From contig JAJYVX010000005.1 in the NCBI GenBank assembly GCA_021791795.1, forward strand, positions 293-48,438: a stretch of DNA of 48,146 nucleotides, read 5' to 3'. The stretch is from Actinomycetes bacterium. GTDB taxonomy: Bacteria > Actinomycetota > Acidimicrobiia > Acidimicrobiales > Bog-793. Below are positions 4,432 to 23,318 of this stretch, piece after piece (the stretch's first letter is position 1; each line of letters begins with the position of its first letter). Under the pieces are notes generated by a model. The model was not told the DNA's origin, made no database searches, and worked only from the letters and a program-made list of their open reading frames with translations. Both the position numbers and the translations under genes were made by a program.

Positions 4432-4432
4432 G

Positions 4433-7881: not shown

Positions 7882-10071
7882 TCAGTGGGCGAACTCCACC
7901 TTCGGCAGCACACGCGCCAGCCAACGGGGCTGGTGCCAGGCGGCGTGGCGGGTGAGGCGCAACAACGCCGGCAGGAGGACGAGCCGCACGACCAGCGCGT
8001 CGAGCGCGACAGCGACGGCGAGGATGACGCCCATCTCCTTCGGCGCGAGGGGCCCTGACAGGGCGAAGGTGAGGAACACGGCGATCATGACTGCCGCGGC
8101 CGACAGGACGACGCGTCCCGACGTCCTGACCGACCCGACCATCGAGTGCTCGGGGTCGGCGTGGGTCTCGTAGCGCTCCTTCGCCACCGAGAGGAGGAAG
8201 AGCGTGTAGTCCATGGCGACGCCGAAGACCATCGCCCCGAAGAACAGCGGAGCCCATGCGTCGACGAAGCCCTGCGGCCGGAAGTGGAGAAGTCCGGAAA
8301 GGTCGCCGTTCTGGAAGATGAGGCGGGCGATCCCGAATGCGCCGGCCACCGAGAGGCTCGTGACGACGACGCCGGCGAAGGCGACGAGAGGAGCGCCGAG
8401 GGCCACGAGCATGAGAAGGAAGCCAAGTCCGGCGAGCATCGCGAACACCACGGGCGTACGGCTGGCCAGTGCCTGCTCGAGGTCATAGTTCTCCGCCGCC
8501 GCACCACCGACGAGGGAGCCCGGGGGGAGACCGGCGCGGAGCCGCTCGATGGTGGCACCGGTCGCCGCGCTCGACGGTCCGCTCGCCGGCACCACCTGGT
8601 CGAGGACGAAGCCCCCGCTCGCCGGTCCCGGCAGCACCTCCGCCACGCCCGGTGTCTTCCTCGCCACCTCCAGCGCCGCCCTTGCGTCGGGCGAAGGGAC
8701 CACCACCTGGAGCGTCCCCGGAAAGCCCTGGCCGAAGGCAGTCGAGACCTGCTCGTAGCCGATGCGGGCGTTGGCGGACGGCGGGACGATCGTGATCGAC
8801 GGCATCGAGGTGCGGAGGCCGAAGACTGGCAGGGCGGCGAGTACGAGCAGCGACAGCCCGGCGATGGCGGCCGGCCAGGGATGTCTCCAGACGAAGCGCC
8901 CCCAGGAGTGCATGCGCTCCTCGAGCTTCCCGCCGGCCGGTCCCTGGCGCCGGGCCCGCCGGAGGCGGACCGGGACGGCGTTCACCCTCGTGCCGAGTCT
9001 GCCGAGGACAGCCGGGAGCAGCGTGAGCGTCGCGGCGAGGACGGCCACGACCGCGAGCATGATGCCGAGCGCCATGGAGCGGAAGGCGGGGCTCGGCACG
9101 ATGAGGATCGACGCGAGTGAGGCGAGGACCGTCACGGCCGAGAAAGCGACCGCCTTGCCCGCCGTGGCGAGGGTCTCGGCGACCGCCTCCGCCGAGGTCG
9201 CACGGTCGCCCGGTTTGGCGATGCGGCGCTCGAGTGCAGCCCGGAAACGCACGACGAGGAAGAGGGCGTAGTCGATCCCGAGCGCGAGGGCGAACATGAG
9301 TGCGAAGTTGAGGGCCCAGATCGACACGGGCGCGAGGTGGTTAGCCAGGACGAGCGCCCCCGCAGCCACGAGCAGGCCGACCATCGTGAGCATGAGCGGC
9401 AAGCCGGCGGCGACGAGGCTCCCGAAGGCGATCACGAGGATGGCGAGGGTGACCGGCCAGGAGAGCATCTCCGAGCGCATCATCGCCGCGTGGTTGGCGG
9501 AGTTGAAGTCGGCCCAGAGAGCGCTGTCCCCCGTGAGCGTCACGGAGACCGCTCGTGTGCCTGACCGCGAGAGCGGCCCCGCCAGCCCGGAGGCGGCGGC
9601 GACCATCTGGTTCGTGTCTGCGGCCGCTCCGGCGACGACGACCGCCGTACGGCCGTCGGCCGAGATCGACACCCCGGGCCGCGGGGCGACGACCGTGCTC
9701 ACGTCGTTGCTGGCTCTGAGCATCGATTCGACACGGGCGATGACCGCTCTTGCGGAAGGGTCGGCCGCGATCCGTCCCGAGTGATCCACGACGACGACCT
9801 GCAGGGCGCTCGCCCCGAGCCCGGCGAAGTCCTTACGGATGATCTGGCGGGCGTGTACCGACTGGCTCGTCGAGTCCTGCCACCCGGCACCGGCGAGGGC
9901 CGACTCGACCTTGGGGGCAAACGTGCCGAAGAGCACCAGCACGCCGAGCCAGCCGAGCAGCACGGGTCGTAGGTGCGTTCCCGTCCAGGTGCCGAGGCGG
10001 GCGAAGATGCCGCCTGGTACTCCAGCGGGCAGGGCGTCCATCACGGCGGTCGGCGACTCTGGGCTCGTCAT
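7882..10071 (-). CDS. MMPL-family (RND superfamily) membrane transporter
   Basis: 729 aa from ATG 10071 (MTSPESPTAV). It has two 6-TM bundles with large soluble loops and typical MMPL motifs: WADFNSANHAAMMRSEMLSWP, ALALGIDYALFLVVRFR and AMDYTLFLLSVAKERY. Confidence 0.9.
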   Translation of the reverse strand: MTSPESPTAVMDALPAGVPGGIFARLGTWTGTHLRPVLLGWLGVLVLFGTFAPKVESALAGAGWQDSTSQSVHARQIIRKDFAGLGASALQVVVVDHSGRIAADPSARAVIARVESMLRASNDVSTVVAPRPGVSISADGRTAVVVAGAAADTNQMVAAASGLAGPLSRSGTRAVSVTLTGDSALWADFNSANHAAMMRSEMLSWPVTLAILVIAFGSLVAAGLPLMLTMVGLLVAAGALVLANHLAPVSIWALNFALMFALALGIDYALFLVVRFRAALERRIAKPGDRATSAEAVAETLATAGKAVAFSAVTVLASLASILIVPSPAFRSMALGIMLAVVAVLAATLTLLPAVLGRLGTRVNAVPVRLRRARRQGPAGGKLEERMHSWGRFVWRHPWPAAIAGLSLLVLAALPVFGLRTSMPSITIVPPSANARIGYEQVSTAFGQGFPGTLQVVVPSPDARAALEVARKTPGVAEVLPGPASGGFVLDQVVPASGPSSAATGATIERLRAGLPPGSLVGGAAAENYDLEQALASRTPVVFAMLAGLGFLLMLVALGAPLVAFAGVVVTSLSVAGAFGIARLIFQNGDLSGLLHFRPQGFVDAWAPLFFGAMVFGVAMDYTLFLLSVAKERYETHADPEHSMVGSVRTSGRVVLSAAAVMIAVFLTFALSGPLAPKEMGVILAVAVALDALVVRLVLLPALLRLTRHAAWHQPRWLARVLPKVEFAH

Positions 10072-10107
10072 CGTCTCTCTTTCTCGGGTCGTCGAAGGTC
10101 GGGCACT

Positions 10108-10123
10108 ATACCCCCCTTGGTAT
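10108..10123. promoter_or_regulatory. Candidate CsoR-family operator (ATACC-N6-GGTAT inverted repeat) upstream of the MMPL gene
   Basis: The sequence ATACCCCCCTTGGTAT lies 37 bp upstream of the MMPL start. It has the same TACC-N6-GGTA architecture as the site at 10243. Confidence 0.4.
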
Positions 10124-10223
10124 CGGGTGCAAGATTCCTGCAGGGCAACCCGATCGCCGGCATCGCGGTTCACCCAGGGTGGGCGGGTCCTCCTCCGGTA
10201 GGTCTGGTCAGGTACACCGGTAG

Positions 10224-10574
<351 letters not shown>

Positions 10575-10632
10575 TTCATCGAGCCGCCGGACCTTCCGAA
10601 TGGATGGCCGCACCTCGGACTGGAGGAGACCA

Positions 10633-11043
10633 GTGGGATACACGACGACGATCACCCTCGCCATCGGCTTCGACGAGGCCGTGCCCCTCGTGAAGGAGGC
10701 TCTGAAGACGAAGGGCTTCGGCACCCTCACCGAGATCGACGTCCGCGCCACGTTGAAGGAGAAGCTCGGCGAGGAGATGGAGCCGTACCTCATCATCGGT
10801 GCCTGCAACCCGAGGCTCGCCCACCAGGCCCTCGACGCGGAGCGCCGGATCGGCGCACTCCTGCCCTGCAACGTGGTCGTCCGCGAGGGCGGCGACGGTG
10901 TCATCATCGACGCGCTCGACCCGGCGATCATGGCGACAGTGACGGAGAACGCCGCCCTCCGCCCTGTGGCCGAGGAGGCGGCCCAGCTCATCGGCGAGGC
11001 GCTCTCAGGCCTTCAAAGCGGTGGCGAGCGAGCTGCCTCCTGA
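10633..11043 (+). CDS. DUF302 domain-containing protein
   Basis: The GTG start is preceded by GGAGGAG. The sequence GFDEAVPLVKEALKTKGFGTLTEIDVRATLKEKLGEEMEPYLIIGACNPRLAHQAL...LLPCNVVV is typical of DUF302. Confidence 0.85.
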   Translation: MGYTTTITLAIGFDEAVPLVKEALKTKGFGTLTEIDVRATLKEKLGEEMEPYLIIGACNPRLAHQALDAERRIGALLPCNVVVREGGDGVIIDALDPAIMATVTENAALRPVAEEAAQLIGEALSGLQSGGERAAS

Positions 11044-11082
11044 GCGCGGCGCGGCGGCGGCCGGCCGCCAACCGTCCCGCGG

Positions 11083-13914
11083 TCAACGGGCCGGGCGGAA
11101 TGCCTTTCGCTTGGGCTTCACGGGCCGCATGAGGAACTCGGGGCGGCGCTCGCCGTCCGGTCCGCTACTCGGTCGGGTCATCGCCAGCCACTCGCGGTAG
11201 ACCTCGCGGGAACGGCTCCGGTCGACGTACACGTCCCCGTAGCGGTCGTCCGGTCGAGCCGGCGTCAACTTCACCTTCTGCAACCAGCAGTGCATGCCGG
11301 ACAGTGGGTCGGGCTGGACGCCGAAGGCGAGGTTCTGGTGCACTCCCGGGTCCGACCAGGTGATGCGGGCGGAATCCGGGTCCGAGGACGAGAACGGCTG
11401 CACGTGACTGCGGTAGCGCAGCAGGAAGCTCTCGGGACCGTCGGGATGAGTGATGTCCACCTGGCCGCTCACCCAGCGACTGCCTTCACCCTCATGGAGC
11501 CGCCACCGACCCATGTGGTGGCTGAGGGCGCACACGCCTGGGCGGATCGCCTCGGTGACCCAGACCCGGACGACGAAGTAGCCGATCGAGGTCGTGAGCC
11601 GCACGAGGTCACCGGTCGCGACGCCGTGGCGATCGGCGTCGCCGCGGTTCAGCCAGAGCGGGTGTGAGTTGGCGATCTCGTTCAGATACTTGGCGTTGCC
11701 CGATCGGGTGTGGATGAGGACCGGCAGCCTGAACGTCGGTACGAGCACGAGCTCGCCGGCAGCCACGTCGATCTTGTGCCGCGACACGTGCGACTCGATG
11801 TAGCCGGGAGTCGCATACTCGGGCCATCCCCAGTCGCGCACGGCGGCCGAGTAGACCTCGAGCTTGCGCGAGGGGGTGGGGAACCCGAACGTCTCGCTTC
11901 CGTCGTCGTGGCGAACGCCGACCGAGCCGGCTTCGCCTATGAGGGGCGGCTGATCGTCGTGGCTGGACGGGCGCCGCAGCACGCCTCGGTCGTCAGCCTC
12001 GGTCCCGTCTGTCTGTTCGGCGGTGAGCTCGCGCTCGTCGAGCCGGTGGGAGGGAACCTCGACCTCGACAGCGCCGAACTTGCGCATGTACTGAAGAGGG
12101 GTGAGGCCCGCCGCCTCCGCCTTCTCGGGCAGCCCTGGCACCTCGTGCTCGAAGATCCAGCGGTAGTACTCCTCGACGGTGATCTTCTCGCCCGGGCGGT
12201 AGGGCGACTCGAAGTTGCGGCGGATGCCCAGGCTGCCGTCGGGGTCGATCCGCCAGGAGAGCTCGAACCAGAACTCGTTCTCCTCCCACACCTCGCCCGG
12301 GTTCGCGTCTCGGGTGTCATTGAAGGGAAGGCCGAGCCGCTCCATCGCGACCCGACGGACCGGCTGGCGGAAGCTGAGCCACCTCGCCCCATGCGTCTCG
12401 TAGGACATCGTGTCGTGCCTCTCGGCGGAGTGGCCCATCGGCAGCACGTAGTCGGCGAACTCAGCAGTCTCCGACCACGTCGGCGTGAGCGCCACGTGGA
12501 GGCCGACCTTCTCGTCGTCTAAGAGCGCGTTCATCCAGCTGAACCCGTCGGGTGCGGTCCAGATCGGGTTCCACACCCGGGAGAAGTACACCTCGAGCCT
12601 GCCTCGCCCCTCCTCGAGGAAGTGCGGGAGGAGGATCGACATCTCGTTCGTGGCGAGCGGGTACTCGGCCGGCCACGTCAGGTCGTTCCAGTGATCGTGC
12701 GCCTCCGGCACGGCCGGACCCTCGGGGATGAACTTGTTCCAGCCGTTGGGGCTCGTGCCGCCGACGGTGCCTATCGAGCCGGTGAGCGCGAGCAGGAACC
12801 AGAGCGCCCGCGCCACCTGCCAGCCGCCGAGGTTCCCCGCACAGGCCGAGCGCCAGACGTGAGCGGCGAGACGGTGGTCGCACCCGGCGACGAGTGCTGC
12901 CAGCTCCTCGATCTGGGCCACGTCGATCTGAGCCTCGGAGGCCGCGAATTCGAACGTGAACGACTCGTAGTCGGCTTCGAGCTGCTCGAGGAAGGACTCG
13001 AAGGTCCCGGGCGCGTCGGGGTGCAGGTTCGCGAGGTAGTCGCGCCAGTTGAACCACCGGCGTACGTACTCCTCGTCTATCTGGCGAGTCCGCAGCAGGT
13101 ACGAGGCGATGGAGAGGAGGATCGCCGCCTCACTGCCCGGCCAGGGCGAGAGCCAGAGGTCGGCGTGCGCCGCCGTGTTCGACAGGCGGGGGTCGACGAC
13201 GACGAGCTTCGCGCCGTCGACCTTGCCCTCCATGATCCGCTGAGCGTGCGGGTTGAAGTAGTGGCCCGTCTCGAGATGGCTCGACAGGAGGAGGATCACC
13301 TTCGCGTTCGCGTGGTCCGGGCTCGGGCGGTCGTAGCCGGTCCACAGGGTCATCCCGAAGCGGGCACCCGAGGAGCACACGTTGGTGTGGCTGTTGTGCC
13401 CGTCGACACCCCAGGCCTGGAGGAATCTCTCGGCGAAACCGTCCTCCCCCGGCCGGCCGACGTGGTACATGACCTCTTCCTGCCGGCCCTCGACGATGGC
13501 CCGGCGAATCCGCCCGGCGATGTCGTCGAGCGCCTCGTCCCAGCTGACGCGCTGCCACTGCCCACCACCGCGTCCTCCCGTGCGGCGCAGCGGGAAGAGG
13601 ATCCGCTCCGGATCGTCGAGCTGGTTCACCGTCGCCGGCCCCTTGGCACAGTTGCGGCCGCGTGAGCCCGGGTGGGCGGGATTGCCCTCGAGCTTGCGGA
13701 CAGAGAGGTCCTTCTTGTCCACGTAGGCGAGCAAGCCGCAACCGGACTCGCAGTTGAAGCACGTCGTCGGAACGAGCATGTACTCGTGCGCAACCTTGCG
13801 CGGATGCGCCCTCGCGTCATGCTCGATGTGGTGGTCCCAGCTCTCCGGCGGAGGGAAGTTGGCAAGGTGTTCGTGATTGCGGGCGCCGGGAAGCGGCATC
13901 GACTGCTCCTTCAT
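11083..13914 (-). CDS. Molybdopterin (bis-MGD) oxidoreductase catalytic subunit, Psr/Phs/Soe-like branch of the DMSO-reductase family, no Tat signal
   Basis: 943 aa. It has an N-terminal FS0 motif (CFNCESGCG...NCAKG), a candidate Cys Mo-ligand region (HTNVCSSGAR) and MopB-like segments such as KLVVVDPRLSNTAAHADLWL. The first 50 residues are hydrophilic, with no RRxFLK motif or h-region. The start overlaps the upstream stop (ATGA 13911-13914). Confidence 0.9.
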   Translation of the reverse strand: MKEQSMPLPGARNHEHLANFPPPESWDHHIEHDARAHPRKVAHEYMLVPTTCFNCESGCGLLAYVDKKDLSVRKLEGNPAHPGSRGRNCAKGPATVNQLDDPERILFPLRRTGGRGGGQWQRVSWDEALDDIAGRIRRAIVEGRQEEVMYHVGRPGEDGFAERFLQAWGVDGHNSHTNVCSSGARFGMTLWTGYDRPSPDHANAKVILLLSSHLETGHYFNPHAQRIMEGKVDGAKLVVVDPRLSNTAAHADLWLSPWPGSEAAILLSIASYLLRTRQIDEEYVRRWFNWRDYLANLHPDAPGTFESFLEQLEADYESFTFEFAASEAQIDVAQIEELAALVAGCDHRLAAHVWRSACAGNLGGWQVARALWFLLALTGSIGTVGGTSPNGWNKFIPEGPAVPEAHDHWNDLTWPAEYPLATNEMSILLPHFLEEGRGRLEVYFSRVWNPIWTAPDGFSWMNALLDDEKVGLHVALTPTWSETAEFADYVLPMGHSAERHDTMSYETHGARWLSFRQPVRRVAMERLGLPFNDTRDANPGEVWEENEFWFELSWRIDPDGSLGIRRNFESPYRPGEKITVEEYYRWIFEHEVPGLPEKAEAAGLTPLQYMRKFGAVEVEVPSHRLDERELTAEQTDGTEADDRGVLRRPSSHDDQPPLIGEAGSVGVRHDDGSETFGFPTPSRKLEVYSAAVRDWGWPEYATPGYIESHVSRHKIDVAAGELVLVPTFRLPVLIHTRSGNAKYLNEIANSHPLWLNRGDADRHGVATGDLVRLTTSIGYFVVRVWVTEAIRPGVCALSHHMGRWRLHEGEGSRWVSGQVDITHPDGPESFLLRYRSHVQPFSSSDPDSARITWSDPGVHQNLAFGVQPDPLSGMHCWLQKVKLTPARPDDRYGDVYVDRSRSREVYREWLAMTRPSSGPDGERRPEFLMRPVKPKRKAFRPAR

Positions 13915-15458
13915 GACAGCGGAACGTCCTGTCCCGCCCGGACGAACACTGACTCGTAGGCGAGCAGGGCGACCTGGCCGAGCACCCCGGCGAGCGCTGC
14001 TCGGCGGAGCCTACGACCCTTCACGGCCGGCGTGGCGAGCCCGGCCGCCAAGCCACCGAGGCCGACAGCGCCAGCCCAGAACAGCTTGCGATAACGGCCC
14101 TTCGTGATCATCTCGGCCGCGGCGGCCGCCTGCGGGGTCTTGTGGCTGCGCCCGTACTCGGTGGCAATGGTGGCGAGGTTCGCGGCCGAAGAAGCCACAA
14201 ACGTACCTGCGAGCATCTTCGTGACCCGGGTCTGTCCGGCGGTGAGCGCCGACAGGGTGAGCAGCACGCCTGAACCACCCTGCAACGCCTGCACGAGAAG
14301 GTGGGGCAGGAGGAGCCGCGACTGCCAGAGATCGCGACCCTCGGCCTGGCCGAACAAGAAGGCGGTGTAACCGGCGGCCGCGGCGGCCGAGGGCACTGCC
14401 AACCACCGCAGCACCGAGACGGCCCTCTTCGTCGTCGACGAACTGACCAACCCGACGGACTCGCCGAGGGCGGCCGCCAGCCACGAGCCGGAGACGGCCG
14501 AGTAGCCGGCGAGGCACGCCGAGCCGAGGAAGAGCCAGGAGCGCGGGTTCGCCTTGGCGAAGATGTACCAGAAGCGCTCGGGACGTTTCAGGTCCCAGAC
14601 GAGGAGCCCTCCGGTGAGGGCGGTGGCGCCCACGCCGATCGCCGGAGCGGCGAGGGCCAGCACCCCTTCGGGCTGTTCGCCGCCGAGCAGCGCACCGGCC
14701 GCCACGAGCAGGGCGCCCGCACCGACGCCCTTGGTCCAGAGGTAGGTGGTGACCCGCCACCCCCACGGACGAGGGTGCGCCGTGTTGAGGGTCGTGCGGG
14801 CGCCCGTCGCCGCCGCGATCGCCATGAGGTCCTCAGACACCGCCTTGCGATGCGGGTCCGGCTGCGACCAGATGTACGAGCCGTCCACCGGTGCGAGCAT
14901 CGGGTTGAGGACGGCCCGGTCGGCGCCGATGTAGAAGACGTTCGGTCCCGTGTTCTGCTCAGGCGCCCGCACCGTGGTCGCGTTCGACGCGACGAGCTGC
15001 GCTATGCCGCTCGCCGGGTCGTCGAGATCCCCGGCCCAGATCGAGTGAGTCGGGCACACGACGACGCAAGCCGGCTCCAAACCGTCGTCCACCCGGTGGG
15101 CGCAGAAGTTGCACTTCGCCGCCGTGTGGGTGTCCTCGTCGATGTAGATCGCGTCGTAGGGACACGCCTGCATGCAGCTCTTGCAGCCGATGCAGCGCTC
15201 CGAGTCGAAGTCGACGATGCCGTCGTCGCGCTTGAACAACGCCTTGGTGGGACAGATGGCAACGCACGGCGCGTCGGTGCAGTGGTTGCACCGCATGACC
15301 CCGAAGGCCCGCGTCGAGTCCGGCCACTCCCCTTTGTCGATGTACTTCACCCATGTGCGGAACTGCCCGATCGGCACCTGGTGTTCCGTCTTGCATGCGA
15401 CGGTGCAGGCATGGCAGCCGATGCAGGTTCGTTGGTCGATGGCAAAGCCGTAGCGCAA
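13911..15458 (-). CDS. Fused 4x[4Fe-4S] ferredoxin subunit (PsrB/SoeB-like) and NrfD/PsrC-like polytopic membrane anchor
   Basis: TTG start with a GGAGGAG SD. There are four Cys clusters (CIGCHACTVAC, CNHCTDAPCVAIC, CIGCKSCMQAC, CNFC...ACVVVC). About 290 aa follow with multiple TM helices and NrfD-like motifs (WDLKRPERFWYIF, FGQAEGRDLWQS). Confidence 0.85.
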   Translation of the reverse strand: MRYGFAIDQRTCIGCHACTVACKTEHQVPIGQFRTWVKYIDKGEWPDSTRAFGVMRCNHCTDAPCVAICPTKALFKRDDGIVDFDSERCIGCKSCMQACPYDAIYIDEDTHTAAKCNFCAHRVDDGLEPACVVVCPTHSIWAGDLDDPASGIAQLVASNATTVRAPEQNTGPNVFYIGADRAVLNPMLAPVDGSYIWSQPDPHRKAVSEDLMAIAAATGARTTLNTAHPRPWGWRVTTYLWTKGVGAGALLVAAGALLGGEQPEGVLALAAPAIGVGATALTGGLLVWDLKRPERFWYIFAKANPRSWLFLGSACLAGYSAVSGSWLAAALGESVGLVSSSTTKRAVSVLRWLAVPSAAAAAGYTAFLFGQAEGRDLWQSRLLLPHLLVQALQGGSGVLLTLSALTAGQTRVTKMLAGTFVASSAANLATIATEYGRSHKTPQAAAAAEMITKGRYRKLFWAGAVGLGGLAAGLATPAVKGRRLRRAALAGVLGQVALLAYESVFVRAGQDVPLS

Positions 15459-15504
15459 TTACTCCTCCGGCGTCAGGGGCGGGTGATGTCGTCTTCGTGA
15501 CAGC

Positions 15505-16887
15505 TCAGGGTGCGGTTTCGATCGGGAGGCCGAGCTCGGCCGCGCGACCCCAGTCGTCGTCGACAAGGACGGCTGACCGCCCCGTACGATCCAGGATGGA
15601 GGCGCTGATCGAGGCGCGCAGACCGCTCGCGCAGTACACCCAGATCTCGCCGTCCGGCAATTCGTCGACACGTTCTGCGAGGTCCCAGAAGGGGATGTGC
15701 AGTGCGCCGGCGAGATGAGCCGCGTCCCACTCGTCCCGTCGCCGTACGTCTAGGAGCAGCTGCCCGGGACGGCCGAAGGCTTCGGCGAGCGTCGCAAAAC
15801 CGGCCACCTCGTAGCCGCCGGTCCGCCCGCCCGCCAAGGCCTCGACACGACCGAGCGCCGCTCCGGCGAGATCGTCGATCCCGATGCGCGTCAGCTGGCG
15901 GCGGGCGTTGCTCAGGTCCTCGAGCCTGTCGCCGACGAGCGTCACCGGTGCCTGCCACGGCACCGTCCAGCCGAAGTACGTGGCGAAGGGGTCGCCGAGT
16001 TCTATCGAGACGGTCCCGGCGATGTGGGTCCGTGCGAAGGCGCGACGCTCGCGGAGGTCGACCACCCACTCGCCTCTCGCGATCCGCTCGCGAAGCACGC
16101 CGGGATCGACGAGCTCGGGCGGTGAGAGATCGGGCGCCGACGGGCCGGCCGCGTTCCGAGGCGCCATGTGAACGTAGTAGCGGGGATAGGCGTTCAGGCC
16201 CGACATCAGCTCGTGCACGAAGCGGTCCTCGTCCTCGGTGACGAGCGCTATGTTGCGGCTCAGCTCTCCACCGATCGTGGAGGAGTCGCCGGACGTCTCG
16301 GTCGCCGAGCAGAAGCTGCCGAAGCCGTGTGTGGGGTGCACCGAGACATGGGCGGGAAGCTCGCTCGCAAGGCGCCGCACCGACCGGTACTGGGCGCGGG
16401 TCAGCTCCTCGGTCCGGTCCTTGCTGATGAGGTCGGTGCGCCCGACTGCTCCGAACAGCATCGAGCCGCCCGTGAGGACGGCGACGGGTGCGCCTTCCTC
16501 CCGCACAAGGTAGGCCATGTGGTTCGGGGTGTGGCCGGGCGTGTGTCGGGCCACGACCGATAGCCGCCCGGTGGCCAGCTCGTGCCCGTCGGTGGCAGGT
16601 GTCCTCTCGAAGGCCACCTCGTCGCCCGCGGGCACGACGTACTCGGCGCCCGTCTCCTTCGCGAGGACGAACCCTCCGGTCACGTAGTCGTTGTGCAAGT
16701 GGGTCTCGAGCACGTGGGAGACGCTCACCCCGAGAGCGTCGACCACCTCGAGCACGCGGTCTATGTCGCGCTGCGGATCGACCACCACGCCCGCCTCGCC
16801 GTCGTGGACGAGGTAGCTCCGGTCGCCGAGCTCCGGGGTCTCTATCGTGACGACCTCGGCGCGGGCCGTCTCCTCTCGGTTCGTCAC
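15505..16887 (-). CDS. CstB-like persulfide dioxygenase (MBL fold) fused to a pseudo-rhodanese and a catalytic rhodanese domain
   Basis: The MBL motifs THLHNDYVTGG and HTPGHTPNH are present. A middle rhodanese-like domain lacks an active-site Cys. The C-terminal rhodanese carries the catalytic loop VYCASGLRAS (CxxxxR). Confidence 0.85.
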   Translation of the reverse strand: MTNREETARAEVVTIETPELGDRSYLVHDGEAGVVVDPQRDIDRVLEVVDALGVSVSHVLETHLHNDYVTGGFVLAKETGAEYVVPAGDEVAFERTPATDGHELATGRLSVVARHTPGHTPNHMAYLVREEGAPVAVLTGGSMLFGAVGRTDLISKDRTEELTRAQYRSVRRLASELPAHVSVHPTHGFGSFCSATETSGDSSTIGGELSRNIALVTEDEDRFVHELMSGLNAYPRYYVHMAPRNAAGPSAPDLSPPELVDPGVLRERIARGEWVVDLRERRAFARTHIAGTVSIELGDPFATYFGWTVPWQAPVTLVGDRLEDLSNARRQLTRIGIDDLAGAALGRVEALAGGRTGGYEVAGFATLAEAFGRPGQLLLDVRRRDEWDAAHLAGALHIPFWDLAERVDELPDGEIWVYCASGLRASISASILDRTGRSAVLVDDDWGRAAELGLPIETAP

Positions 16888-17116
16888 CTCGCTATTACTA
16901 CCCTATGTACGAATGTACGTACCAATTGCCCCGTACCATCGTCGTTCGCAAGCTTCCTCCAAGGTGTCCCGACTCTCCCAGCTGTCATGAGGTCTCCATG
17001 CGAACCATCGCCAGCCTCCGGAGAGCTCGACGAGCACATTACCCCGCAGGGTATCGAGACGGGCAGCACCGTCGACTCGCACCCTGTGCCGACGACCCGA
17101 AACGGAGCATGAGGAG

Positions 17117-18532
17117 ATGGACGGGATCACGACGACGGAGCAGGAGAACGATGTCGAGACCGCTGAGGGCGCCCGCGGCTTCACCCGTGTCCGGGTCCCG
17201 GCGCCGCTCCTCAAGCGGCGGCTGCCCTCGGGGCGTGGCGCAACCGAGCAACCGAACAACACCGACGACGGCGATGCACCGCTCACCGTGCGCTTCTGGC
17301 TCGCACTGCTCTTCACCGGAGTGGCCACAGGGCTGTTCGGCGTCCTCATGATGGTGGTGCTGTTCAACCTCGAGCACCTGGCGTTCGGCACGGGCTCCGG
17401 CGACTATCAGAGCCGCGTCGAGCAGGCGTCGGCCGTCCACCGGGTCCTCTCGCTCGTCATCGCCGGCGCGTTCGCCGGACCGGCCTGGTACCTGCTGCGC
17501 AAGTACACGAAAGGCGAGAAGTCAGAGGTCGACGAAGTGATCTGGGCCGGCGACGGGAGGCTCTCTTTGCGCCGCAGCCTCCTCACCGGGATCATCTCCG
17601 AGGTGGCGGTCGGCATGGGCGCCTCGATCGGACGGGAGGCAGCGCCGAAGCTCATGGGTGGCGTGTCCGGCAGCATGGCCGCGGGCTGGTTCGGGCTCAC
17701 GACCTCCCAGCGACGACTGTTGGTGGCCTGCGGCGCAGGAGCCGGGCTCGCCGCCGTCTACAACGTGCCGCTCGGCGGAGCACTGTTCACCGCCGAGGTC
17801 CTCGTCGGCTCGGTGTCACTGCCGGTGGTGCTGCCGGCAGCGGCCACGAGCTTCATCGCCGCGGCCGTCGCCTGGGTGTACCTCCCCCAGCACGCGACCT
17901 ACGTGGACCTCCCCTCGTATCACTTCTCCACGACTCTGCTCGTGTGGGCGATCGTTGCGGGACCGGTCATCGGCCTCCTCGCGTCCGGCTACATCCGCCT
18001 CATGGGCTGGGTGTCGCACCACCGGCTGAGAGGGCGCATCGCCATCGGAGGACCGCTCGTCGCCTTCACCATCCTCGGCGTGATCGGCATCGCCTACCCG
18101 GCACTGTTCGGCAACGGCAAGGACATGGCGCACCGGGCCTTCCTCGGACAGGGCACGTTCCTCGTGCTGCTCGCCCTGTTTGCCCTGAAGCCCCTCGTGA
18201 CCGCGCTGTGCCTCGGGAGCGGGGCGTCGGGAGGACTGTTCACACCCTTCATGAGCACCGGGGCGGTCTTCGGTGCCATGGCAGGGATCGCCTGGTCACA
18301 TGTGTGGCCTGGAGAGGCGGTGGGGGGTTTTGCCCTGGTGGGCGCTGCAGCCATGCTCGGTTCGTCCATCCAAGCACCTCTTGCGGGGCTCGTGCTCGTC
18401 GTCGAGCTCACCCATACCGGCTTCTCGCTTCTCGTGCCGATCATGACCGCAACCGTGCTCGCCACGGCCGTGGCGCGCCACATCGACGGCTACTCCATCT
18501 ACTCTGCGAGGCTCCCCGCCGCTCACGAGTGA
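17117..18532 (+). CDS. ClC-family chloride channel / H+-Cl- antiporter
   Basis: Contains GASIGREAAPKLMGG (GREGP-like), AAVYNVPLGGALFTAEVL and GSGASGGLFTPFMSTGAVFG (GxFxP), with about 10 or more TM segments. Confidence 0.85.
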   Translation: MDGITTTEQENDVETAEGARGFTRVRVPAPLLKRRLPSGRGATEQPNNTDDGDAPLTVRFWLALLFTGVATGLFGVLMMVVLFNLEHLAFGTGSGDYQSRVEQASAVHRVLSLVIAGAFAGPAWYLLRKYTKGEKSEVDEVIWAGDGRLSLRRSLLTGIISEVAVGMGASIGREAAPKLMGGVSGSMAAGWFGLTTSQRRLLVACGAGAGLAAVYNVPLGGALFTAEVLVGSVSLPVVLPAAATSFIAAAVAWVYLPQHATYVDLPSYHFSTTLLVWAIVAGPVIGLLASGYIRLMGWVSHHRLRGRIAIGGPLVAFTILGVIGIAYPALFGNGKDMAHRAFLGQGTFLVLLALFALKPLVTALCLGSGASGGLFTPFMSTGAVFGAMAGIAWSHVWPGEAVGGFALVGAAAMLGSSIQAPLAGLVLVVELTHTGFSLLVPIMTATVLATAVARHIDGYSIYSARLPAAHE

Positions 18533-18593: not shown

Positions 18594-19406
18594 CTAGCCC
18601 AGTCCGGTGGCTCCTGCCCGCTCTGGGTCTCGACCCGCCGGCTTGGCCTCTTCGAACTCGAGAGGCGCCTCGAAGGCTGCGTCGAGCCGCCCGTGCGACC
18701 AACGCGCCACGAAGGCGAACCGGTCGGCACGGATGACCCCGTGCCGCCACTCGACGGGGACCGTCCCCTCGCTCGCCAGGCGCTCGATGGCAAAGGCCGC
18801 CGAGCGCGGGCCGATCTCGAGCAGGCGCCGCTGTTCTGCCGTCGGGATCACGGGGGTGAGCCGCTCCCAACCCGAGTCCGGCCTTATTCCACAACGCTGC
18901 TCGAGCTCCTTGTACAGGGCGGTGCGACGGAAGTCGGCGCTCAGCAGGCGACGGGCCAGCCGTGCGGGCAGCCAGGAGCAGTCGAGAACCGCCGGACTCC
19001 CGTCGAGGAGCCGCAGGCGCTCTATGTAGACGAGGGGTTCGTCAGGTCCGAAACCGAGCATTGCGGCCGCGTCCGCGTCCCGTCGCTCCTCCAGGTGCCG
19101 TACGAGGCTCACCTGGTCGAAGCCCTGCTCCTCAGCTGATCGGTAGAGGCTGTACATGGCGCCGAGCGACTGCTCGATCGGACGGCGGCGCACGGAGGTG
19201 CCCTGCCCCCGCACGCGCTCGACGAGACCTTCCTGCTGCAGGTGGCGCACGGCCTCCCGCACCGTCTGGCGGCTGACCGCGTACTGGCTCACGAGCTCGA
19301 CGTCACTCGGAAACCGCTCGGCGAACTCACCGGCCGCCATCCTCGCACGCAGGTCCCCCAGTATCTGGACCCAGAGCGGCACCGGGCTGCGTCTGTTCAC
19401 GCGCAC
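18594..19406 (-). CDS. GntR-family regulator, HutC subfamily (wHTH + UTRA domain); start uncertain (GTG 19406/19400 or TTG 19454)
   Basis: PLWVQILGDLRARMAAGEFAERFPSDVELVSQYAVSRQTVREAVRHLQQEGLVERVRGQGTSV is a GntR wHTH. The C-terminal ~170 aa is UTRA-like. Confidence 0.8.
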   Translation of the reverse strand: MRVNRRSPVPLWVQILGDLRARMAAGEFAERFPSDVELVSQYAVSRQTVREAVRHLQQEGLVERVRGQGTSVRRRPIEQSLGAMYSLYRSAEEQGFDQVSLVRHLEERRDADAAAMLGFGPDEPLVYIERLRLLDGSPAVLDCSWLPARLARRLLSADFRRTALYKELEQRCGIRPDSGWERLTPVIPTAEQRRLLEIGPRSAAFAIERLASEGTVPVEWRHGVIRADRFAFVARWSHGRLDAAFEAPLEFEEAKPAGRDPERAGATGLG

Positions 19407-19450
19407 CGCACAAGTATGTGCGCGTGGAGGCCGCGCCCTGCCGCGGTCGC

Positions 19451-19621
19451 TCAATCGCGCGAGAACAGCCGCCGCAGCATCGACCGCCGTTCGCCGGCCT
19501 CTTTAGCGTGCCCGGGGCAGCGCTGGGACGTCGCCACTCGCCGCATGACCTGCTCGACATGCATCCCGCAGCCGGCCCACGTCGTCTTGCCACAGGTTCG
19601 GCACCTCACCGCGCGGCACAT
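19451..19621 (-). CDS. Small Cys-rich protein (56 aa) of a type I recall from other actinobacteria
   Basis: MCRAVRCRTCGKTTWAGCGMHVEQVMRRVATSQRCPGHAKE... has a CxxC...C...C/H pattern. The last 56 codons of the otherwise implausible ORF 19451..20287 were chosen. An alternative ATG lies at 19660. Confidence 0.55.
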   Translation of the reverse strand: MCRAVRCRTCGKTTWAGCGMHVEQVMRRVATSQRCPGHAKEAGERRSMLRRLFSRD

Positions 19622-20046
19622 CTTCTTCTCGTCCTCCTCGTCTCGGGGTTGGCACACCATACCCGCCCCGGTATCCGTCGGGACACCGGCACATGGGAGA
19701 CGCGCCTGCGCTGGCAGCGCCGGAGGACGCGCCGAAGGACTTTCGGGGTCGTCGCTGAGGCGCTGGTAGCAAAGGAGGCTGGTGAAGAGGCCGGTGAGGA
19801 ACCCGATCATGTCCAGAGGGGCGAGCGAGATGCCCGCGCCGAGGTCGCCCGAGGTCGCCCGAGGCGACGCCGAGCGGCACGAGCCGCAGGAGCGAAACCG
19901 TCGCGGTGAAGTCGCCGAGGCCACGCTCAGAGTTCGCTCGGGGCCGGAGCGCCGCTCCGAGGAACGTGTCCGCCGCGAGATCGCCTCGTCCCTCGAGAGT
20001 GGCGGGCGGTCCGCACGGGTTTCGCGGACCACCGGGCGAGGCCGGG

Positions 20047-20536: not shown

Positions 20537-20878
20537 TCAGCGGGTCCGGGTGAACCGGTGAATCGCCTCGAGCAGCTCGTTCGTCTTCTCGGCTGCCACC
20601 GCGTCGTCGCCCGACGAAAGGGCGTGACGCACACAGTGGGTCACGTGGTCCTCGAGGATCTTGACGGCGACCGCGTCCAGTGCCGTCGTGACTGCGGCGA
20701 TCTGGGTGAGGATGTCGATGCAGTACCGGTCGTCCGTGATCATCTTCTCGATGCCGCGAGTCTGGCCCTCGATCCGCCGCATCCGCTTCACGAGTGCGTC
20801 CTTGTCGGCGACGTATCCGTAGGGTGGCCCGGATACCGCTCCCGCCGAGCCCCGCGGCGCATGCGGAGCGTCGGTCAT
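20537..20878 (-). CDS. csoR: Copper-sensing CsoR repressor (x-C-H-C type)
   Basis: [53 protein letters not shown] carries the Cys/His/Cys ligand set. The start overlaps the copA stop (ATGA 20875-20878). Confidence 0.9.
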
Positions 20879-23294: not shown

Positions 23295-23318
23295 CACCGA
23301 CCTCCTCCGCTCATGTAT

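What the first reader, a model, noticed from the sequence alone, without database searches (positions are those of the whole stretch)
11083..16887. Operon linking a CstB-type persulfide dioxygenase-rhodanese to a cytoplasm-facing Psr/Soe-like molybdoenzyme
Seen in sequence: the operon reads (minus strand) MBL-PDO + pseudo-rhodanese + active rhodanese (CASGLR), then a ferredoxin/NrfD fusion, then a 943-aa bis-MGD catalytic subunit. The last two genes are coupled by an ATGA overlap. The catalytic subunit has the FS0 Cys motif but no twin-arginine signal, and the Fe-S subunit starts directly with its first cluster motif. The active site is therefore predicted to face the cytoplasm.

Established knowledge: periplasmic Psr/Phs/Ttr enzymes carry Tat signals, the sulfite-oxidising SoeABC complex does not, and CstB-type enzymes produce thiosulfate or sulfite from persulfides.

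Inference: this would be a self-contained module in which persulfide is converted to sulfite or thiosulfate, and a membrane-anchored Mo enzyme passes the electrons to the quinone pool. As far as I know, direct operonic coupling of these two activities is not a described system.
Basis: partly seen in the sequence, partly recalled or inferred. Interest (0 to 1): 0.8.

Follow-up and report, generated by a model that had tools for sequence, protein, structure and literature searches.

The report
Cytoplasm-facing molybdoenzyme in a persulfide-detox operon
An actinobacterial operon joins a persulfide-destroying enzyme to an uncharacterised membrane-anchored molybdenum enzyme that faces the cell interior, which most likely oxidises the resulting sulfite and passes the electrons to the respiratory chain.

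Summary
Three minus-strand genes encode:
- a CstB-type persulfide dioxygenase-rhodanese (15505-16887);
- a fusion of a four-cluster ferredoxin with an 8-helix NrfD anchor (13911-15458);
- a 943-aa bis-MGD enzyme with an FS0 cluster motif and a Cys Mo-ligand (11083-13914), joined to the previous gene by an ATGA overlap.

Neither Mo-enzyme gene can be extended to include a Tat signal. Across 71 homologues the positive-inside rule places the Fe-S domain in the cytoplasm (71/71).

The ferredoxin/NrfD plus catalytic-subunit pair is a widespread, unnamed family. It occurs in Actinomycetota, Thermomicrobium, Dormibacterota, Acidobacteriota and haloarchaea. Its nearest sequence relatives carry Tat signals.

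52 of 76 loci carry sulfur genes within 8 kb. These include CstB-like genes (42 of all 83 loci), DsrE2/TusA, sHdr-like genes, SulP and TauE. CstR-type regulators and TACCC-N4-GGGTA operators sit at these promoters, including in the window.

The best reading is a persulfide-sensor-controlled module whose Mo enzyme works like SoeABC (sulfite:menaquinone oxidoreductase). Substrate, direction of catalysis and orthology to SoeA remain untested. The tight operon fusion occurs only in a subclade. I rate it a new variant of a known kind, of moderately high interest.

The parts
15505..16887 (-). CstB-type persulfide dioxygenase: metallo-beta-lactamase dioxygenase domain, pseudo-rhodanese domain, and active rhodanese domain (Cys419, CASGLR)
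   Evidence: Pfam finds Lactamase_B and Rhodanese. It aligns full length to CstB 3r2u (E 1e-47) and to 3tp9 (E 3e-63).
13911..15458 (-). Fusion of a four-[4Fe-4S] ferredoxin (residues 1-~190) with an 8-helix NrfD-type quinone-interacting membrane anchor (~225-510)
   Evidence: Pfam finds Fer4_11 and NrfD. Sixteen Cys form four motifs, and a stop codon directly precedes the TTG start. K+R counts place the N-terminal domain in the cytoplasm in 71 of 71 homologues. NCBIfam's best matches are TtrB at 196.6 bits (cut-off 416) and DsrO at 170.3 bits (cut-off 200), so neither is met.
11083..13914 (-). 943-aa bis-MGD catalytic subunit with an FS0 cluster motif (C52/C55/C59/C89) and a Cys180 Mo ligand; no Tat signal
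   Evidence: Pfam finds three MopB domains. Cys180 aligns to the PsrA and ArrA ligand Cys. No longer ORF is possible. The N-terminus is conserved across the family and has no twin-arginine motif.
13911..13914 (-). ATGA stop/start overlap coupling the ferredoxin/NrfD gene to the catalytic-subunit gene
   Evidence: The sequence reads ...CTG TCA TGA AGG..., read directly.
17040..17054 (.). CsoR/CstR-type operator palindrome (TACCCCGCAGGGTAT) in the intergenic region shared by the dioxygenase operon and the divergent ClC gene
   Evidence: The pattern TACCC-N2-8-GGGTA gives 2 hits in the window against 0.01 expected. The same motif lies upstream of CstB-like or ferredoxin/NrfD genes in many related loci.
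10275..10574 (+). CstR-like regulator (CsoR family with only Cys45 and Cys74 and no His), convergent with the Mo-enzyme operon
   Evidence: Pfam finds Trns_repr_metal. NCBIfam RicR, FrmR and RcnR cut-offs are not met. It aligns to E. faecalis CstR 7mq1, with ...LREC against ...LTEC, where Cu-sensing CsoRs have H-x-x-x-C.
10600..11043 (+). DUF302 protein directly downstream of the CstR-like gene
   Evidence: Pfam finds DUF302, E 1e-24. The same CsoR-like plus DUF302 pair occurs in L004 and L027; L008 shows DUF302 only. The start at 10600 is inferred from the first ATG after the regulator's stop codon.
10108..10123 (.). Operator-like palindrome ATACCCCCCTTGGTAT upstream of the CstR-like gene
   Evidence: The pattern ATACC-N4-10-GGTA gives 5 strand-hits at 3 sites in the window against 0.16 expected.
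10243..10256 (.). Operator palindrome TACCCCGGGGGGTA, ending 18 nt before the start codon of the CstR-like gene
17117..18532 (+). ClC-family anion channel/exchanger, divergent from the operon and sharing the operator-bearing intergenic region; a possible co-regulated partner
   Evidence: Pfam finds Voltage_CLC, E 1e-71. A ClC gene lies next to the Mo operon in 7 loci.
19451..19621 (-). 56-aa Cys-rich ORF behind a fourth operator (19659-19674) and ahead of the GntR gene (18594-19454); a probable member of the same regulon
   Evidence: The operator is. There is no Pfam hit. Homologues occur in 8 related loci; one search shows the same operator type directly upstream in six of them (L003, L006, L007, L022, L029, L081).

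Best explanation
This is a sulfane-sulfur detoxification and oxidation module, probably controlled by a CstR-type persulfide sensor.

Proposed mechanism:
1. The CstB-type dioxygenase-rhodanese oxidises low-molecular-weight thiol persulfides in the cytoplasm, using O2, to sulfite or thiosulfate.
2. The two-gene molybdoenzyme sits on the cytoplasmic face of the membrane. It consists of the bis-MGD catalytic subunit with a Cys-ligated Mo, plus the four-cluster ferredoxin fused to an inverted NrfD anchor.
3. This enzyme oxidises the sulfite to sulfate.
4. The two electrons pass through FS0 and the four [4Fe-4S] clusters to menaquinone bound in the NrfD domain. They then enter the aerobic respiratory chain.

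In function it works like SoeABC. In sequence it is a separate, unnamed, widespread Tat-less family with fused B and C subunits.

What is shown: gene structure, cofactor motifs, absence of export signals, cytoplasmic orientation, family distribution, and the neighbourhood and operator statistics. What is inferred: substrate, direction of catalysis, quinone type and regulation.
For: Architecture and cofactor motifs are established.

No export is possible:
- Both ORFs are maximal and have no twin-arginine motif.
- 41 of 71 homologues of the ferredoxin/NrfD fusion begin exactly at MRYGFAIDQRTCIGC.
- The catalytic subunit's N-terminus, 'LPGxRxHExLxNFPP..WDxHVExDAxAHPRKV', is conserved and has no signal.

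Orientation: K+R averages 11.7 on the Fe-S side and 1.8 on the opposite side, with the same sign in 71 of 71.

Sulfur context is found in 52 of 76 loci:
- CstB-like genes in 42 of all 83 loci, SulP in 15, TusA in 13, rhodanese-YgaP in 10, DsrE2 in 9, TauE in 5.
- R. jostii RHA1 plasmid pRHL3 carries dsrE-tusA-ferredoxin/NrfD-catalytic subunit-mrp, divergent from two metallo-beta-lactamase genes and ArsR regulators.
- In Gordonia and L025, HdrA/B/C-like genes with TusA or DsrE diverge from the operon. The enzyme therefore sits beside two different cytoplasmic systems that generate sulfite.

Regulation:
- The window's CsoR-family protein has the CstR fingerprint.
- Three TACCC-N4-GGGTA sites plus one N6 variant (10108-10123) occur in the window, against 0.01-0.16 expected.
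- The same site lies directly ahead of the ferredoxin/NrfD gene in L010 and L031, and ahead of CstB-like genes in at least 12 loci.
- In T. roseum a His-free CsoR-like gene is the first gene of the operon.

Host lineages named are, to my knowledge, largely aerobic. That fits an electron-donating dehydrogenase better than an anaerobic reductase.

From established knowledge: the sulfite/sulfate couple (about -516 mV) can reduce menaquinone (about -74 mV). SoeABC is the precedent for a cytoplasm-facing NrfD-anchored sulfite dehydrogenase (PMC8076601).
Against: - No bona fide SoeA sequence could be obtained, so orthology is untested.
- Among the best 150 library representatives, I read the N-termini of 13 hits outside the family. 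Seven full-length ones, 818-1123 aa, carry Tat signals (P0127, P0143, P0185, P0189, P0192, P0237, P0242, P0269). The Tat-less ones were a 737-aa protein (P0228) or looked frameshifted. None looks like SoeA (Tat-less, about 950-990 aa).
- JGI names family members with a generic COG label, not the SoeA KEGG name.
- CstB is reported to release thiosulfate rather than free sulfite. The true substrate could therefore be thiosulfate or a persulfide.
- DsrE2/TusA in the same operon could mean that protein-bound sulfane sulfur is the substrate.
- 24 of 76 loci, including the one haloarchaeal locus I opened (Natrinema), show no sulfur gene within 8 kb.
- The window also encodes a true Cu-type CsoR (C53/H78/C82) next to copZ-copA. 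This regulator might be the one that binds the operators.
- No experimental data were found for any family member.
Confidence: 0.55

Rival explanations
1. The architecture and orientation are the same, but the substrate is sulfane sulfur or thiosulfate rather than sulfite. The Mo enzyme would oxidise thiosulfate, a low-molecular-weight persulfide or TusA/DsrE-bound persulfide sulfur directly and reduce menaquinone. This would be an O2-independent cytoplasmic route parallel to rDsr and sHdr.
For: - dsrE2-tusA lie directly upstream in the same operon in RHA1 and in Nocardioides-type loci (TusA in 13 loci, DsrE2 in 9).
- CstB-type enzymes are reported to yield thiosulfate (abstract of PMC12934615).
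- The best curated-model match is PhsA, the thiosulfate reductase.
Against: - The association with two different sulfite producers (the dioxygenase and sHdr-like genes) and with SulP and TauE is explained most simply by sulfite.
- No precedent is known to me for a bis-MGD enzyme oxidising protein persulfides.
- The PhsA match is far below its cut-off (158.7 against 694 bits).
Confidence: 0.2
2. It is a cytoplasm-facing reductase. It would draw electrons from menaquinol to reduce polysulfide, persulfide, thiosulfate or tetrathionate inside the cell, lowering sulfane sulfur to H2S or thiol.
For: - The closest solved structure and closest curated families are reductases: PsrA 2vpw (E 1e-28), PhsA and TtrB.
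- A. aeolicus SoeABC was first described as a sulfur reductase, and Sre and Soe share a branch (PMC4378227).
Against: - Menaquinol is a poor donor for thiosulfate or polysulfide reduction (established redox potentials).
- Making H2S in the cytoplasm under a persulfide-stress regulon alongside an O2-dependent dioxygenase is counter-productive.
- Host lineages are, to my knowledge, largely aerobic.
- Sulfate and sulfite transporters are neighbours.
Confidence: 0.12
3. The enzyme acts on a non-sulfur substrate (for example arsenite, selenite, formate or an N- or S-oxide). Its proximity to sulfur genes would then reflect shared regulation or genomic-island structure only.
For: - 24 of 76 loci have no sulfur-marker gene within 8 kb, including the Natrinema locus.
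- No curated family cut-off is met, so sequence alone does not fix the substrate.
- The most constant partner is an Mrp/NBP35 Fe-S carrier (49 of 83 loci), which says nothing about substrate.
Against: - Several independent sulfur gene families are enriched across phyla.
- Persulfide-sensor-type regulators or operators sit directly at the Mo-enzyme promoter in L010, L031 and T. roseum.
- By rough estimate, a CstB-like gene would lie within 16 kb by chance in about 1% of loci. The observed figure is about 50%.
Confidence: 0.08
4. The complex is exported after all, through a cryptic or partner-borne signal, and works in the periplasm-equivalent space like Psr/Phs/Ttr.
For: The nearest sequence relatives are Tat-dependent. 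P0127 is 47% identical and begins MAMHRRTFLKAAAL. P0185, P0143, P0189, P0242 and the Azoarcus homologue also carry Tat signals.
Against: - Neither ORF can be extended.
- There is no twin-arginine motif family-wide.
- An N-terminal four-cluster domain fused ahead of eight helices has no route across the membrane.
- The K+R bias is 11.7 against 1.8, in 71 of 71 homologues.
Confidence: 0.03

Closest known systems
SoeABC sulfite:quinone oxidoreductase (Allochromatium vinosum, Aquifex aeolicus)
   Same: - It is a complex iron-sulfur molybdoenzyme: a bis-MGD subunit, a four-cluster ferredoxin and a cofactor-less NrfD anchor.
- It has no Tat signals.
- Its peripheral subunits are predicted on the cytoplasmic (N) side, with an inverted NrfD (PMC8076601).
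- It functions downstream of cytoplasmic systems that produce sulfite.
   Different: - Here the B and C subunits are one polypeptide, and the gene order is BC-A rather than A-B-C.
- An Mrp/NBP35 gene often follows the catalytic-subunit gene.
- The hosts are Gram-positive bacteria, Chloroflexota and archaea.
- The control appears to be of the CstR type.
- Sequence kinship with SoeA was not testable here. Indirect evidence suggests a separate lineage whose nearest relatives are Tat-exported.
PsrABC/PhsABC polysulfide and thiosulfate reductases (T. thermophilus PsrABC, PDB 2vpw)
   Same: - This is the best structural and curated sequence match (2vpw E 1e-28; NCBIfam PhsA is the top hit).
- It shares the FS0 motif, the Cys Mo-ligand position, the four-cluster B subunit and the 8-helix NrfD anchor.
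   Different: - Psr and Phs are Tat-exported and face the periplasm; this enzyme is not.
- The catalytic subunit here is about 180 aa longer.
- The PhsA score of 158.7 bits is far below the 694-bit cut-off.
- Psr and Phs act as reductases in anaerobes.
TtrBCA tetrathionate reductase
   Same: - The gene order is B-C-A.
- The ferredoxin domain's best curated match is TtrB (196.6 bits).
   Different: - TtrA matches only a 49-residue stretch, 96.8 bits against a 1750 cut-off.
- The TtrB cut-off of 416 is not met.
- Ttr subunits carry Tat signals (PMC12949373).
- No TorD-type chaperone gene is present here.
cst operon of Staphylococcus aureus (CstR, CstA, CstB, SQR)
   Same: - It has a CstB-type three-domain persulfide dioxygenase-rhodanese.
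- It has a CsoR-family regulator with two Cys and no Cu-ligand His.
- It has GC-rich palindromic operators at the promoters.
   Different: - No Mo enzyme belongs to the described cst operon.
- Here the sulfite or thiosulfate end-product appears to be oxidised through the respiratory chain instead of (or as well as) being exported.
- The regulator gene is convergent, not divergent.
sHdr-LbpA (type II) cytoplasmic sulfur oxidation systems of Actinomycetota, Chloroflexota and Bacillota
   Same: - It is a cytoplasmic pathway from sulfane sulfur to sulfite that uses TusA and DsrE carriers.
- It is present in the same phyla (PMC11094781).
- It is physically adjacent to this Mo enzyme in Gordonia and L025.
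   Different: - It is a different enzyme system, a partner rather than a homologue.
- The window itself has no Hdr-like genes.

Membership tests
SoeABC (sulfite dehydrogenase, quinone) | Modules: bis-MGD catalytic subunit with FS0, four-[4Fe-4S] subunit, and a haem-free NrfD/PsrC anchor | tested here: met
   Pfam domains and Cys motifs are present. The B and C modules are fused into one protein, which is a variation on the scheme.
SoeABC (sulfite dehydrogenase, quinone) | No signal peptides; catalytic and Fe-S subunits on the cytoplasmic side | tested here: met
   Both ORFs are maximal and lack a twin-arginine motif. The conserved N-termini across the family have no signal. K+R is 11.7 against 1.8, in 71 of 71 homologues.
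SoeABC (sulfite dehydrogenase, quinone) | Catalytic subunit falls in the SoeA clade of the DMSO-reductase family | tested here: inconclusive
   No SoeA reference sequence or model was reachable. There is none in NCBIfam, PDB or PLSDB, and no named hit. Indirectly, none of the 13 outgroup representatives whose N-termini I read among the best 150 is SoeA-like.
SoeABC (sulfite dehydrogenase, quinone) | Sulfite:quinone oxidoreductase activity | not testable with these tools
   This needs enzyme assays.
PhsA/PsrA (thiosulfate/polysulfide reductase) | Score at or above the curated NCBIfam cut-off for NF012032 | tested here: not met
   158.7 bits against a cut-off of 694.
Periplasmic Psr/Phs/Ttr/Arr-type enzymes | Twin-arginine signal on the catalytic subunit | tested here: not met
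   There is no RR in residues 1-60, and an in-frame stop 33 codons upstream with no start codon in between.
TtrBCA tetrathionate reductase | TtrA, TtrB and TtrC curated cut-offs | tested here: not met
   TtrA 96.8 against 1750; TtrB 196.6 against 416; TtrC 32 against 314.
ArrAB arsenate reductase | ArrA and ArrB curated cut-offs | tested here: not met
   ArrA 87.2 against 1600; ArrB 157.8 against 450.
CstB-type (type III) persulfide dioxygenase | Three-domain architecture: metallo-beta-lactamase dioxygenase domain, pseudo-rhodanese, and rhodanese with catalytic Cys | tested here: met
   It aligns full length to CstB 3r2u (E 1e-47). Asp sits at the pseudo-rhodanese loop, and Cys419 aligns with the CstB catalytic Cys.
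CstB-type (type III) persulfide dioxygenase | Persulfide dioxygenase and sulfurtransferase activity | not testable with these tools
   This needs an enzyme assay. The metal motif H-x-H-x-D is present (THLHNDY).
CstR persulfide-sensing repressor | CsoR-family fold with the two sensing Cys and without the Cu(I)-ligand His | tested here: met
   Pfam finds PF02583. The protein has only C45 and C74 and no His at all. It aligns to E. faecalis CstR 7mq1, with Gly at the position where Cu-sensing CsoRs have His. A Cu-type paralogue with C/H/C in the same window serves as contrast.
CstR persulfide-sensing repressor | Binds operators at the promoters of sulfur-detoxification genes and is released by persulfide | tested here: inconclusive
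   Operator-like palindromes lie at the promoters of the regulator gene, the dioxygenase/ClC pair and the small ORF, and are conserved in related loci. Which CsoR paralogue binds them, and how it responds to persulfide, needs experiments.

The most novel reading that the evidence does not exclude
The fused ferredoxin/NrfD plus catalytic-subunit (plus Mrp/NBP35) family is an independent lineage. It moved from the periplasmic to the cytoplasmic face separately from SoeABC. It oxidises sulfane sulfur or thiosulfate directly, delivered by DsrE2/TusA or released by CstB, with menaquinone as acceptor. That would be a third, Mo-dependent and O2-independent cytoplasmic sulfur-oxidation route alongside rDsr and sHdr, wired to a persulfide sensor in aerobic Actinomycetota, Chloroflexota, Dormibacterota and haloarchaea.
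Probability: 0.12. Interest if true: 0.85.

Novelty: new variant of a known kind. Interest (0 to 1): 0.6.

Why it matters
CstR-type persulfide stress regulons and type II sHdr systems both make sulfite inside the cell. As far as I could find, how Gram-positive aerobes, Chloroflexota and their relatives dispose of that sulfite has not been described.

A cytoplasm-facing, menaquinone-linked Mo enzyme under persulfide-sensor control would close that gap. It would turn a detoxification pathway into an energy-yielding one. It would also add many unrecognised sulfite or sulfur oxidisers from soil and acidic environments to sulfur-cycle inventories. Public annotation currently labels all of these proteins 'molybdopterin-dependent oxidoreductase' or 'anaerobic selenocysteine-containing dehydrogenase'.

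The family also offers a natural case of an NrfD-anchored enzyme with inverted membrane orientation whose close relatives face the other way. That bears on how these anchors couple quinone chemistry to the proton gradient.

Culturable carriers make it directly testable. They include R. jostii RHA1 (plasmid pRHL3), Gordonia, Mycolicibacterium moriokaense, Pseudonocardia and T. roseum.

Tried and rejected
Attempts to obtain a true SoeA for a direct comparison all failed:
- No SoeA model exists in NCBIfam and no SoeABC chain in the PDB.
- tblastn against 72,556 plasmids gave 14 records, none SoeA-like. The Caballeronia hit is a soluble 732-aa enzyme next to an aldehyde dehydrogenase. The Mesorhizobium hit is a 1099-aa enzyme next to a 2Fe-2S gene.
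- Two cluster look-ups of 20 distant representatives returned no SoeA name.
- A second homologue search seeded with the divergent P0122 only widened the same family to Acidobacteriota, Chloroflexota, Dormibacterota and Thermodesulfobacteriota.

Literature:
- Ten full-text searches found no paper describing this family or this coupling. They covered SoeABC with Actinobacteria, Actinomycetota and Acidimicrobiia, Thermomicrobium, CstR with molybdopterin, NrfD fusions, and Alvin_2491.
- The T. roseum transcriptome paper reports the sHdr cluster but does not mention this operon.
- The HMS-S-S paper is not held.

Methods that misled me:
- A hydropathy threshold of 1.3 found only 5 of the 8 helices. 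I replaced it with manual boundaries checked on a 71-sequence alignment.
- My GC3-based gene caller picked an antisense ORF (10242-10991) instead of the CstR-like and DUF302 genes.
- My Tat regular expression missed obvious signals in P0185 and the Azoarcus homologue. I read the N-termini by eye instead.
- Several 'Tat-less' representatives (P0141, P0165, P0179, P0195, P0206) look like frameshifted assemblies, and I ignored them.
- The promoter and terminator scan was uninformative in this 69% G+C DNA.

I rejected assigning all four operators to CstR with confidence. A Cu-type CsoR is encoded 1 kb from the fourth site.

Full report
**1. The observation**

The window is about 69% G+C. At 11083-16887 it carries three consecutive minus-strand ORFs of 460, 515 and 943 aa.

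Pfam assigns these domains:
- First ORF: Lactamase_B plus Rhodanese.
- Second ORF: a 4Fe-4S dicluster domain (Fer4_11, residues 55-144) plus NrfD (residues 225-510).
- Third ORF: Molybdop_Fe4S4, Molybdopterin and Molydop_binding.

The first protein aligns over its whole length with S. aureus CstB (PDB 3r2u, E 1e-47) and with 3tp9 (E 3e-63).
- It has the THLHNDY metal motif.
- Its middle rhodanese-like domain has Asp at the catalytic-loop position, as CstB does.
- Its C-terminal rhodanese carries Cys419 in CASGLR.

The ferredoxin domain has sixteen Cys in four canonical cluster motifs, starting at residue 12.

The catalytic subunit has the FS0 motif (C52, C55, C59, C89). Cys180 aligns to the Mo-ligand Cys position of PsrA and ArrA.

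The ferredoxin/NrfD gene and the catalytic-subunit gene overlap by ATGA. The dioxygenase gene and the ferredoxin/NrfD gene are 46 nt apart, with a GGAGGAG ribosome-binding site.

**2. Export and orientation**

The catalytic subunit's ATG is preceded by an in-frame TAG 33 codons upstream, with no ATG, GTG or TTG in between. The ferredoxin/NrfD TTG start is directly preceded by a stop codon. A 'cryptic upstream Tat signal' is therefore excluded for this sequence.

Across 83 homologous loci the catalytic subunit's N-terminus is a conserved, non-hydrophobic segment (LPGxRxHExLxNFPP..WDxHVExDAxAHPRKV) with no twin-arginine motif. In 41 of 71 homologues the maximal ORF of the ferredoxin/NrfD fusion begins exactly at MRYGFAIDQRTCIGC.

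I mapped eight transmembrane helices onto a 71-sequence alignment.
- Loops on the same side as the N-terminal Fe-S domain hold on average 11.7 Lys+Arg.
- Loops on the other side hold 1.8.
- The sign is the same in 71 of 71 sequences.

By the positive-inside rule, the Fe-S domain and hence the Mo subunit are cytoplasmic. The NrfD module is inverted relative to Psr-type enzymes. This is what has been proposed for SoeC (PMC8076601).

**3. The Mo-enzyme family**

The catalytic subunit has thousands of close homologues (70-87% identity), none with a functional name.

A scan of one genome per species returned 80 loci. They come from Acidimicrobiia-like MAGs, Acidiferrimicrobium, Pseudonocardia, Actinomycetospora, Saccharopolyspora, Amycolatopsis, Gordonia, Mycolicibacterium, Mycobacterium sherrisii, Actinomadura, Nocardioides, Kribbella and Dormibacterota.

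Further copies:
- R. jostii RHA1 plasmid pRHL3, 69% identity.
- The Thermomicrobium roseum megaplasmid, 61.5%.
- Haloarchaeal plasmids, about 51%.
- Acidobacteriota, Chloroflexota and Thermodesulfobacteriota.

L008 (Acidiferrimicrobium sp. IK) has nearly the same gene order as the window: GntR, ClC, dioxygenase, ferredoxin/NrfD, catalytic subunit, DUF302, MMPL. The CstR-like gene was not detected there.

No curated family cut-off is met:

| NCBIfam model | Score (bits) | Cut-off (bits) |
|---|---|---|
| PhsA | 158.7 | 694 |
| TtrA | 96.8 | 1750 |
| ArrA | 87.2 | 1600 |
| TtrB | 196.6 | 416 |
| DsrO | 170.3 | 200 |

The best solved structure is T. thermophilus PsrA (E 1e-28).

I searched 1.84 billion cluster representatives and read the N-termini of 13 hits from outside the family. 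I also read the Azoarcus plasmid homologue.
- Seven full-length representatives, 32-38% identical, carry clear Tat signals (P0143, P0185, P0189, P0192, P0237, P0242, P0269). P0127 (47% identical) and the Azoarcus homologue do too.
- P0127 and P0185 even keep the 'YPPxExW' N-terminal motif behind their signals.
- The Tat-less ones were a 737-aa protein (P0228) or looked frameshifted.
- These relatives also meet no curated cut-off.

The family is therefore a Tat-less clade whose visible neighbours are exported enzymes.

I could not obtain a true SoeA sequence. None of the hits I inspected has SoeA's expected features (Tat-less, about 950-990 aa). JGI gives family members a generic COG name, while it gives a Tat-bearing relative the PhsA/PsrA KEGG name. 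Taken together, this weakly suggests the family is not a close SoeA orthologue.

**4. Genomic context**

I compared 83 loci in all: the 80 genome loci, the window, RHA1 and T. roseum. ORF clustering and Pfam annotation gave these counts:

| Neighbour within about 8 kb | Loci |
|---|---|
| Ferredoxin/NrfD fusion directly upstream | all 76 that reach that far |
| Mrp/NBP35 Fe-S carrier ATPase | 49 |
| CstB-like dioxygenase-rhodanese | 42 |
| GntR | 30 |
| DUF202 | 18 |
| SulP sulfate permease | 15 |
| TusA | 13 |
| Rhodanese-YgaP | 10 |
| DsrE2 | 9 |
| ArsR-type regulator | 9 |
| CsoR-type regulator | 8 |
| TauE/SafE | 5 |
| SQR-like | 4 |
| HdrA/B/C-like | 4 |

The Mrp/NBP35 gene overlaps the catalytic-subunit stop codon in RHA1 and Natrinema.

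At least one sulfur marker is present in 52 of 76 loci.

The dioxygenase gene lies directly upstream on the same strand in about 14 loci, mostly those with at least 82% catalytic-subunit identity. It is divergent in about 15-18 loci and elsewhere in the flank in the rest.

Specific arrangements:
- RHA1 has dsrE-tusA-ferredoxin/NrfD-catalytic subunit-mrp. This operon diverges from two metallo-beta-lactamase genes, DUF202 genes, ArsR regulators and thioredoxin.
- T. roseum has a CsoR-like gene, then ferredoxin/NrfD, then the catalytic subunit.
- Gordonia and L025 have HdrC/HdrB(CCG)/HdrA-like genes with TusA or DsrE. These diverge from DUF59-ferredoxin/NrfD-catalytic subunit-Mrp.

Type II sHdr systems are reported in Actinobacteriota and Chloroflexota (PMC11094781). 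The T. roseum sHdr-type cluster (hdrABC, etfAB, tusA, dsrE, lbpA) is strongly induced in stationary phase (PMC6776052).

The Mo enzyme thus sits beside two unrelated cytoplasmic systems whose common product is sulfite.

**5. Regulation**

Convergent with the operon lies a CsoR-family gene (10275-10574), followed by a DUF302 gene.
- Its product has only Cys45 and Cys74 and no His.
- It fails the RicR, FrmR and RcnR cut-offs.
- It aligns with E. faecalis CstR (7mq1), with Gly where Cu-sensing CsoRs have the ligand His.

A second CsoR paralogue (20537-20878) closes a copZ-copA operon. It has the full Cu ligand set, C53/H78/C82.

The window holds four operator-type palindromes, against 0.01-0.16 expected by chance:
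- Two lie just upstream of the CstR-like gene (10108-10123 and 10243-10256).
- One lies in the intergenic region between the dioxygenase gene and ClC (17040-17054).
- One lies upstream of a conserved 56-aa Cys-rich ORF and the GntR gene (19659-19674).

The 14-bp form TACCC-N4-GGGTA recurs in related loci:
- upstream of CstB-like genes in at least 12 loci;
- directly upstream of the ferredoxin/NrfD gene in L010, which has no dioxygenase gene in between, and in L031;
- upstream of CsoR-like genes.

The CsoR-like protein co-transcribed with the enzyme in T. roseum also lacks His.

Which paralogue binds the window's sites is not proven.

**6. Mechanism**

The best-supported reading is as follows.
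1. Persulfide stress releases a CstR-type repressor.
2. CstB oxidises thiol persulfides with O2.
3. The cytoplasm-facing Mo enzyme oxidises the sulfite formed to sulfate.
4. It reduces menaquinone in the inverted NrfD domain.
5. Sulfate leaves through SulP, ClC or a similar transporter.

Energetically, sulfite can readily reduce menaquinone (established redox potentials). Such a reaction at the cytoplasmic face would be electroneutral unless the NrfD module moves ions. Energy would then be conserved further down the respiratory chain.

Steps shown: architecture, cofactor motifs, orientation, conserved context and operator placement. Steps inferred: substrate, direction, quinone type, and the identity of the regulator that binds the operators.

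Rival readings are:
- oxidation of thiosulfate or sulfane sulfur, suggested by DsrE2/TusA in the operon;
- a cytoplasmic reductase;
- a non-sulfur substrate, suggested by 24 of 76 loci without sulfur neighbours, including Natrinema;
- cryptic export, which is essentially excluded.

**7. Comparison with known systems, and novelty**

The enzyme works like SoeABC and is built like Psr, Phs and Ttr. It differs in four ways:
- it is not exported;
- its B and C subunits are fused;
- it has an Mrp/NBP35 companion;
- it belongs to no curated family.

Its link to a CstB/CstR system was not described in any paper I could find in ten full-text searches.

I rate it a new variant of a known kind. The idea of a cytoplasm-facing sulfite-type Mo enzyme already has the SoeABC precedent. 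The strict operon fusion is a subclade feature.

Even so, the family is large, unnamed and testable in culturable strains. It plausibly fills a real gap, the fate of cytoplasmic sulfite in Gram-positive and Chloroflexota sulfur metabolism. I score interest at 0.6.

Noticed in passing
window 19451-19621 (-), operator 19659-19674; also L003, L006, L007, L010, L022, L029, L069, L081: A conserved 56-aa Cys-rich ORF (MCRAVRCRTCGKTTWAGCG...RCPGH) has no Pfam match. In the window and in six of the eight related loci it sits directly behind a TACCC-N4-GGGTA-type site. It sits ahead of a GntR/UTRA regulator (L003, L006, L010) or the CstB-like gene (L007, L029). In RHA1 it is annotated only as a hypothetical protein. 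It looks like an unrecognised member of the same regulon.
   Followed up: partly
window 20537-23429 (-): A copZ (HMA) - copA (P-type ATPase) - csoR operon, with a Cu-type CsoR (C53/H78/C82). The window therefore encodes two CsoR paralogues with different sensing sites. Both could recognise similar GC-rich palindromes. A one-mismatch site (GACCCTACCGGGTA) lies at 26209-26222, further upstream.
   Followed up: partly
window 17117-18532 (+): A ClC-family anion channel/exchanger diverges from the dioxygenase operon and shares its operator-bearing intergenic region. A ClC gene neighbours the Mo operon in 7 related loci, for example L008, L010 and L055. It may export an anion such as sulfate, sulfite or thiosulfate.
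   Followed up: partly
L081 (R. jostii RHA1 pRHL3) 11826-12995; L085 (Natrinema) 9897-11057; 49 of 83 loci: An Mrp/NBP35 Fe-S carrier ATPase (ParA/NUBPL plus a DUF59 domain) is the most constant extra partner of the Mo enzyme. It often overlaps the catalytic-subunit stop codon. Some loci add a separate DUF59 gene upstream. The window's operon lacks it. It may be a dedicated maturation factor for this cytoplasmic enzyme, in place of a TorD-type chaperone.
   Followed up: partly
L038/L039 (Gordonia) 1864-5073; L025 1866-5303: HdrA-like, HdrB-like (CCG domain) and HdrC-like genes, with TusA or DsrE, lie divergent from DUF59-ferredoxin/NrfD-catalytic subunit-Mrp. This is an sHdr-type sulfur oxidation cluster physically joined to the Mo enzyme.
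   Followed up: partly
P0127, P0185 (library representatives): The nearest outgroup proteins (47% and 36% identity, 1115 and 1123 aa) keep the family's N-terminal 'YPPxExW' motif but carry clear Tat signals. Exported and non-exported forms therefore exist within one wider clade.
   Followed up: partly
window 31185-34174 and 35768-38485 (+): Two aldehyde-oxidase/xanthine-dehydrogenase/CoxL-type molybdenum hydroxylase large subunits. The first is followed by a 2Fe-2S subunit. The region is rich in Mo enzymes unrelated to the finding.
   Followed up: no
window 7882-10275 (-): An MMPL-family transporter gene diverges from the CstR-like gene. The two operators at 10108-10256 lie in what is probably its promoter region, since the maximal ORF is likely over-extended at its 5' end. 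The same MMPL neighbour is present in L008.
   Followed up: no
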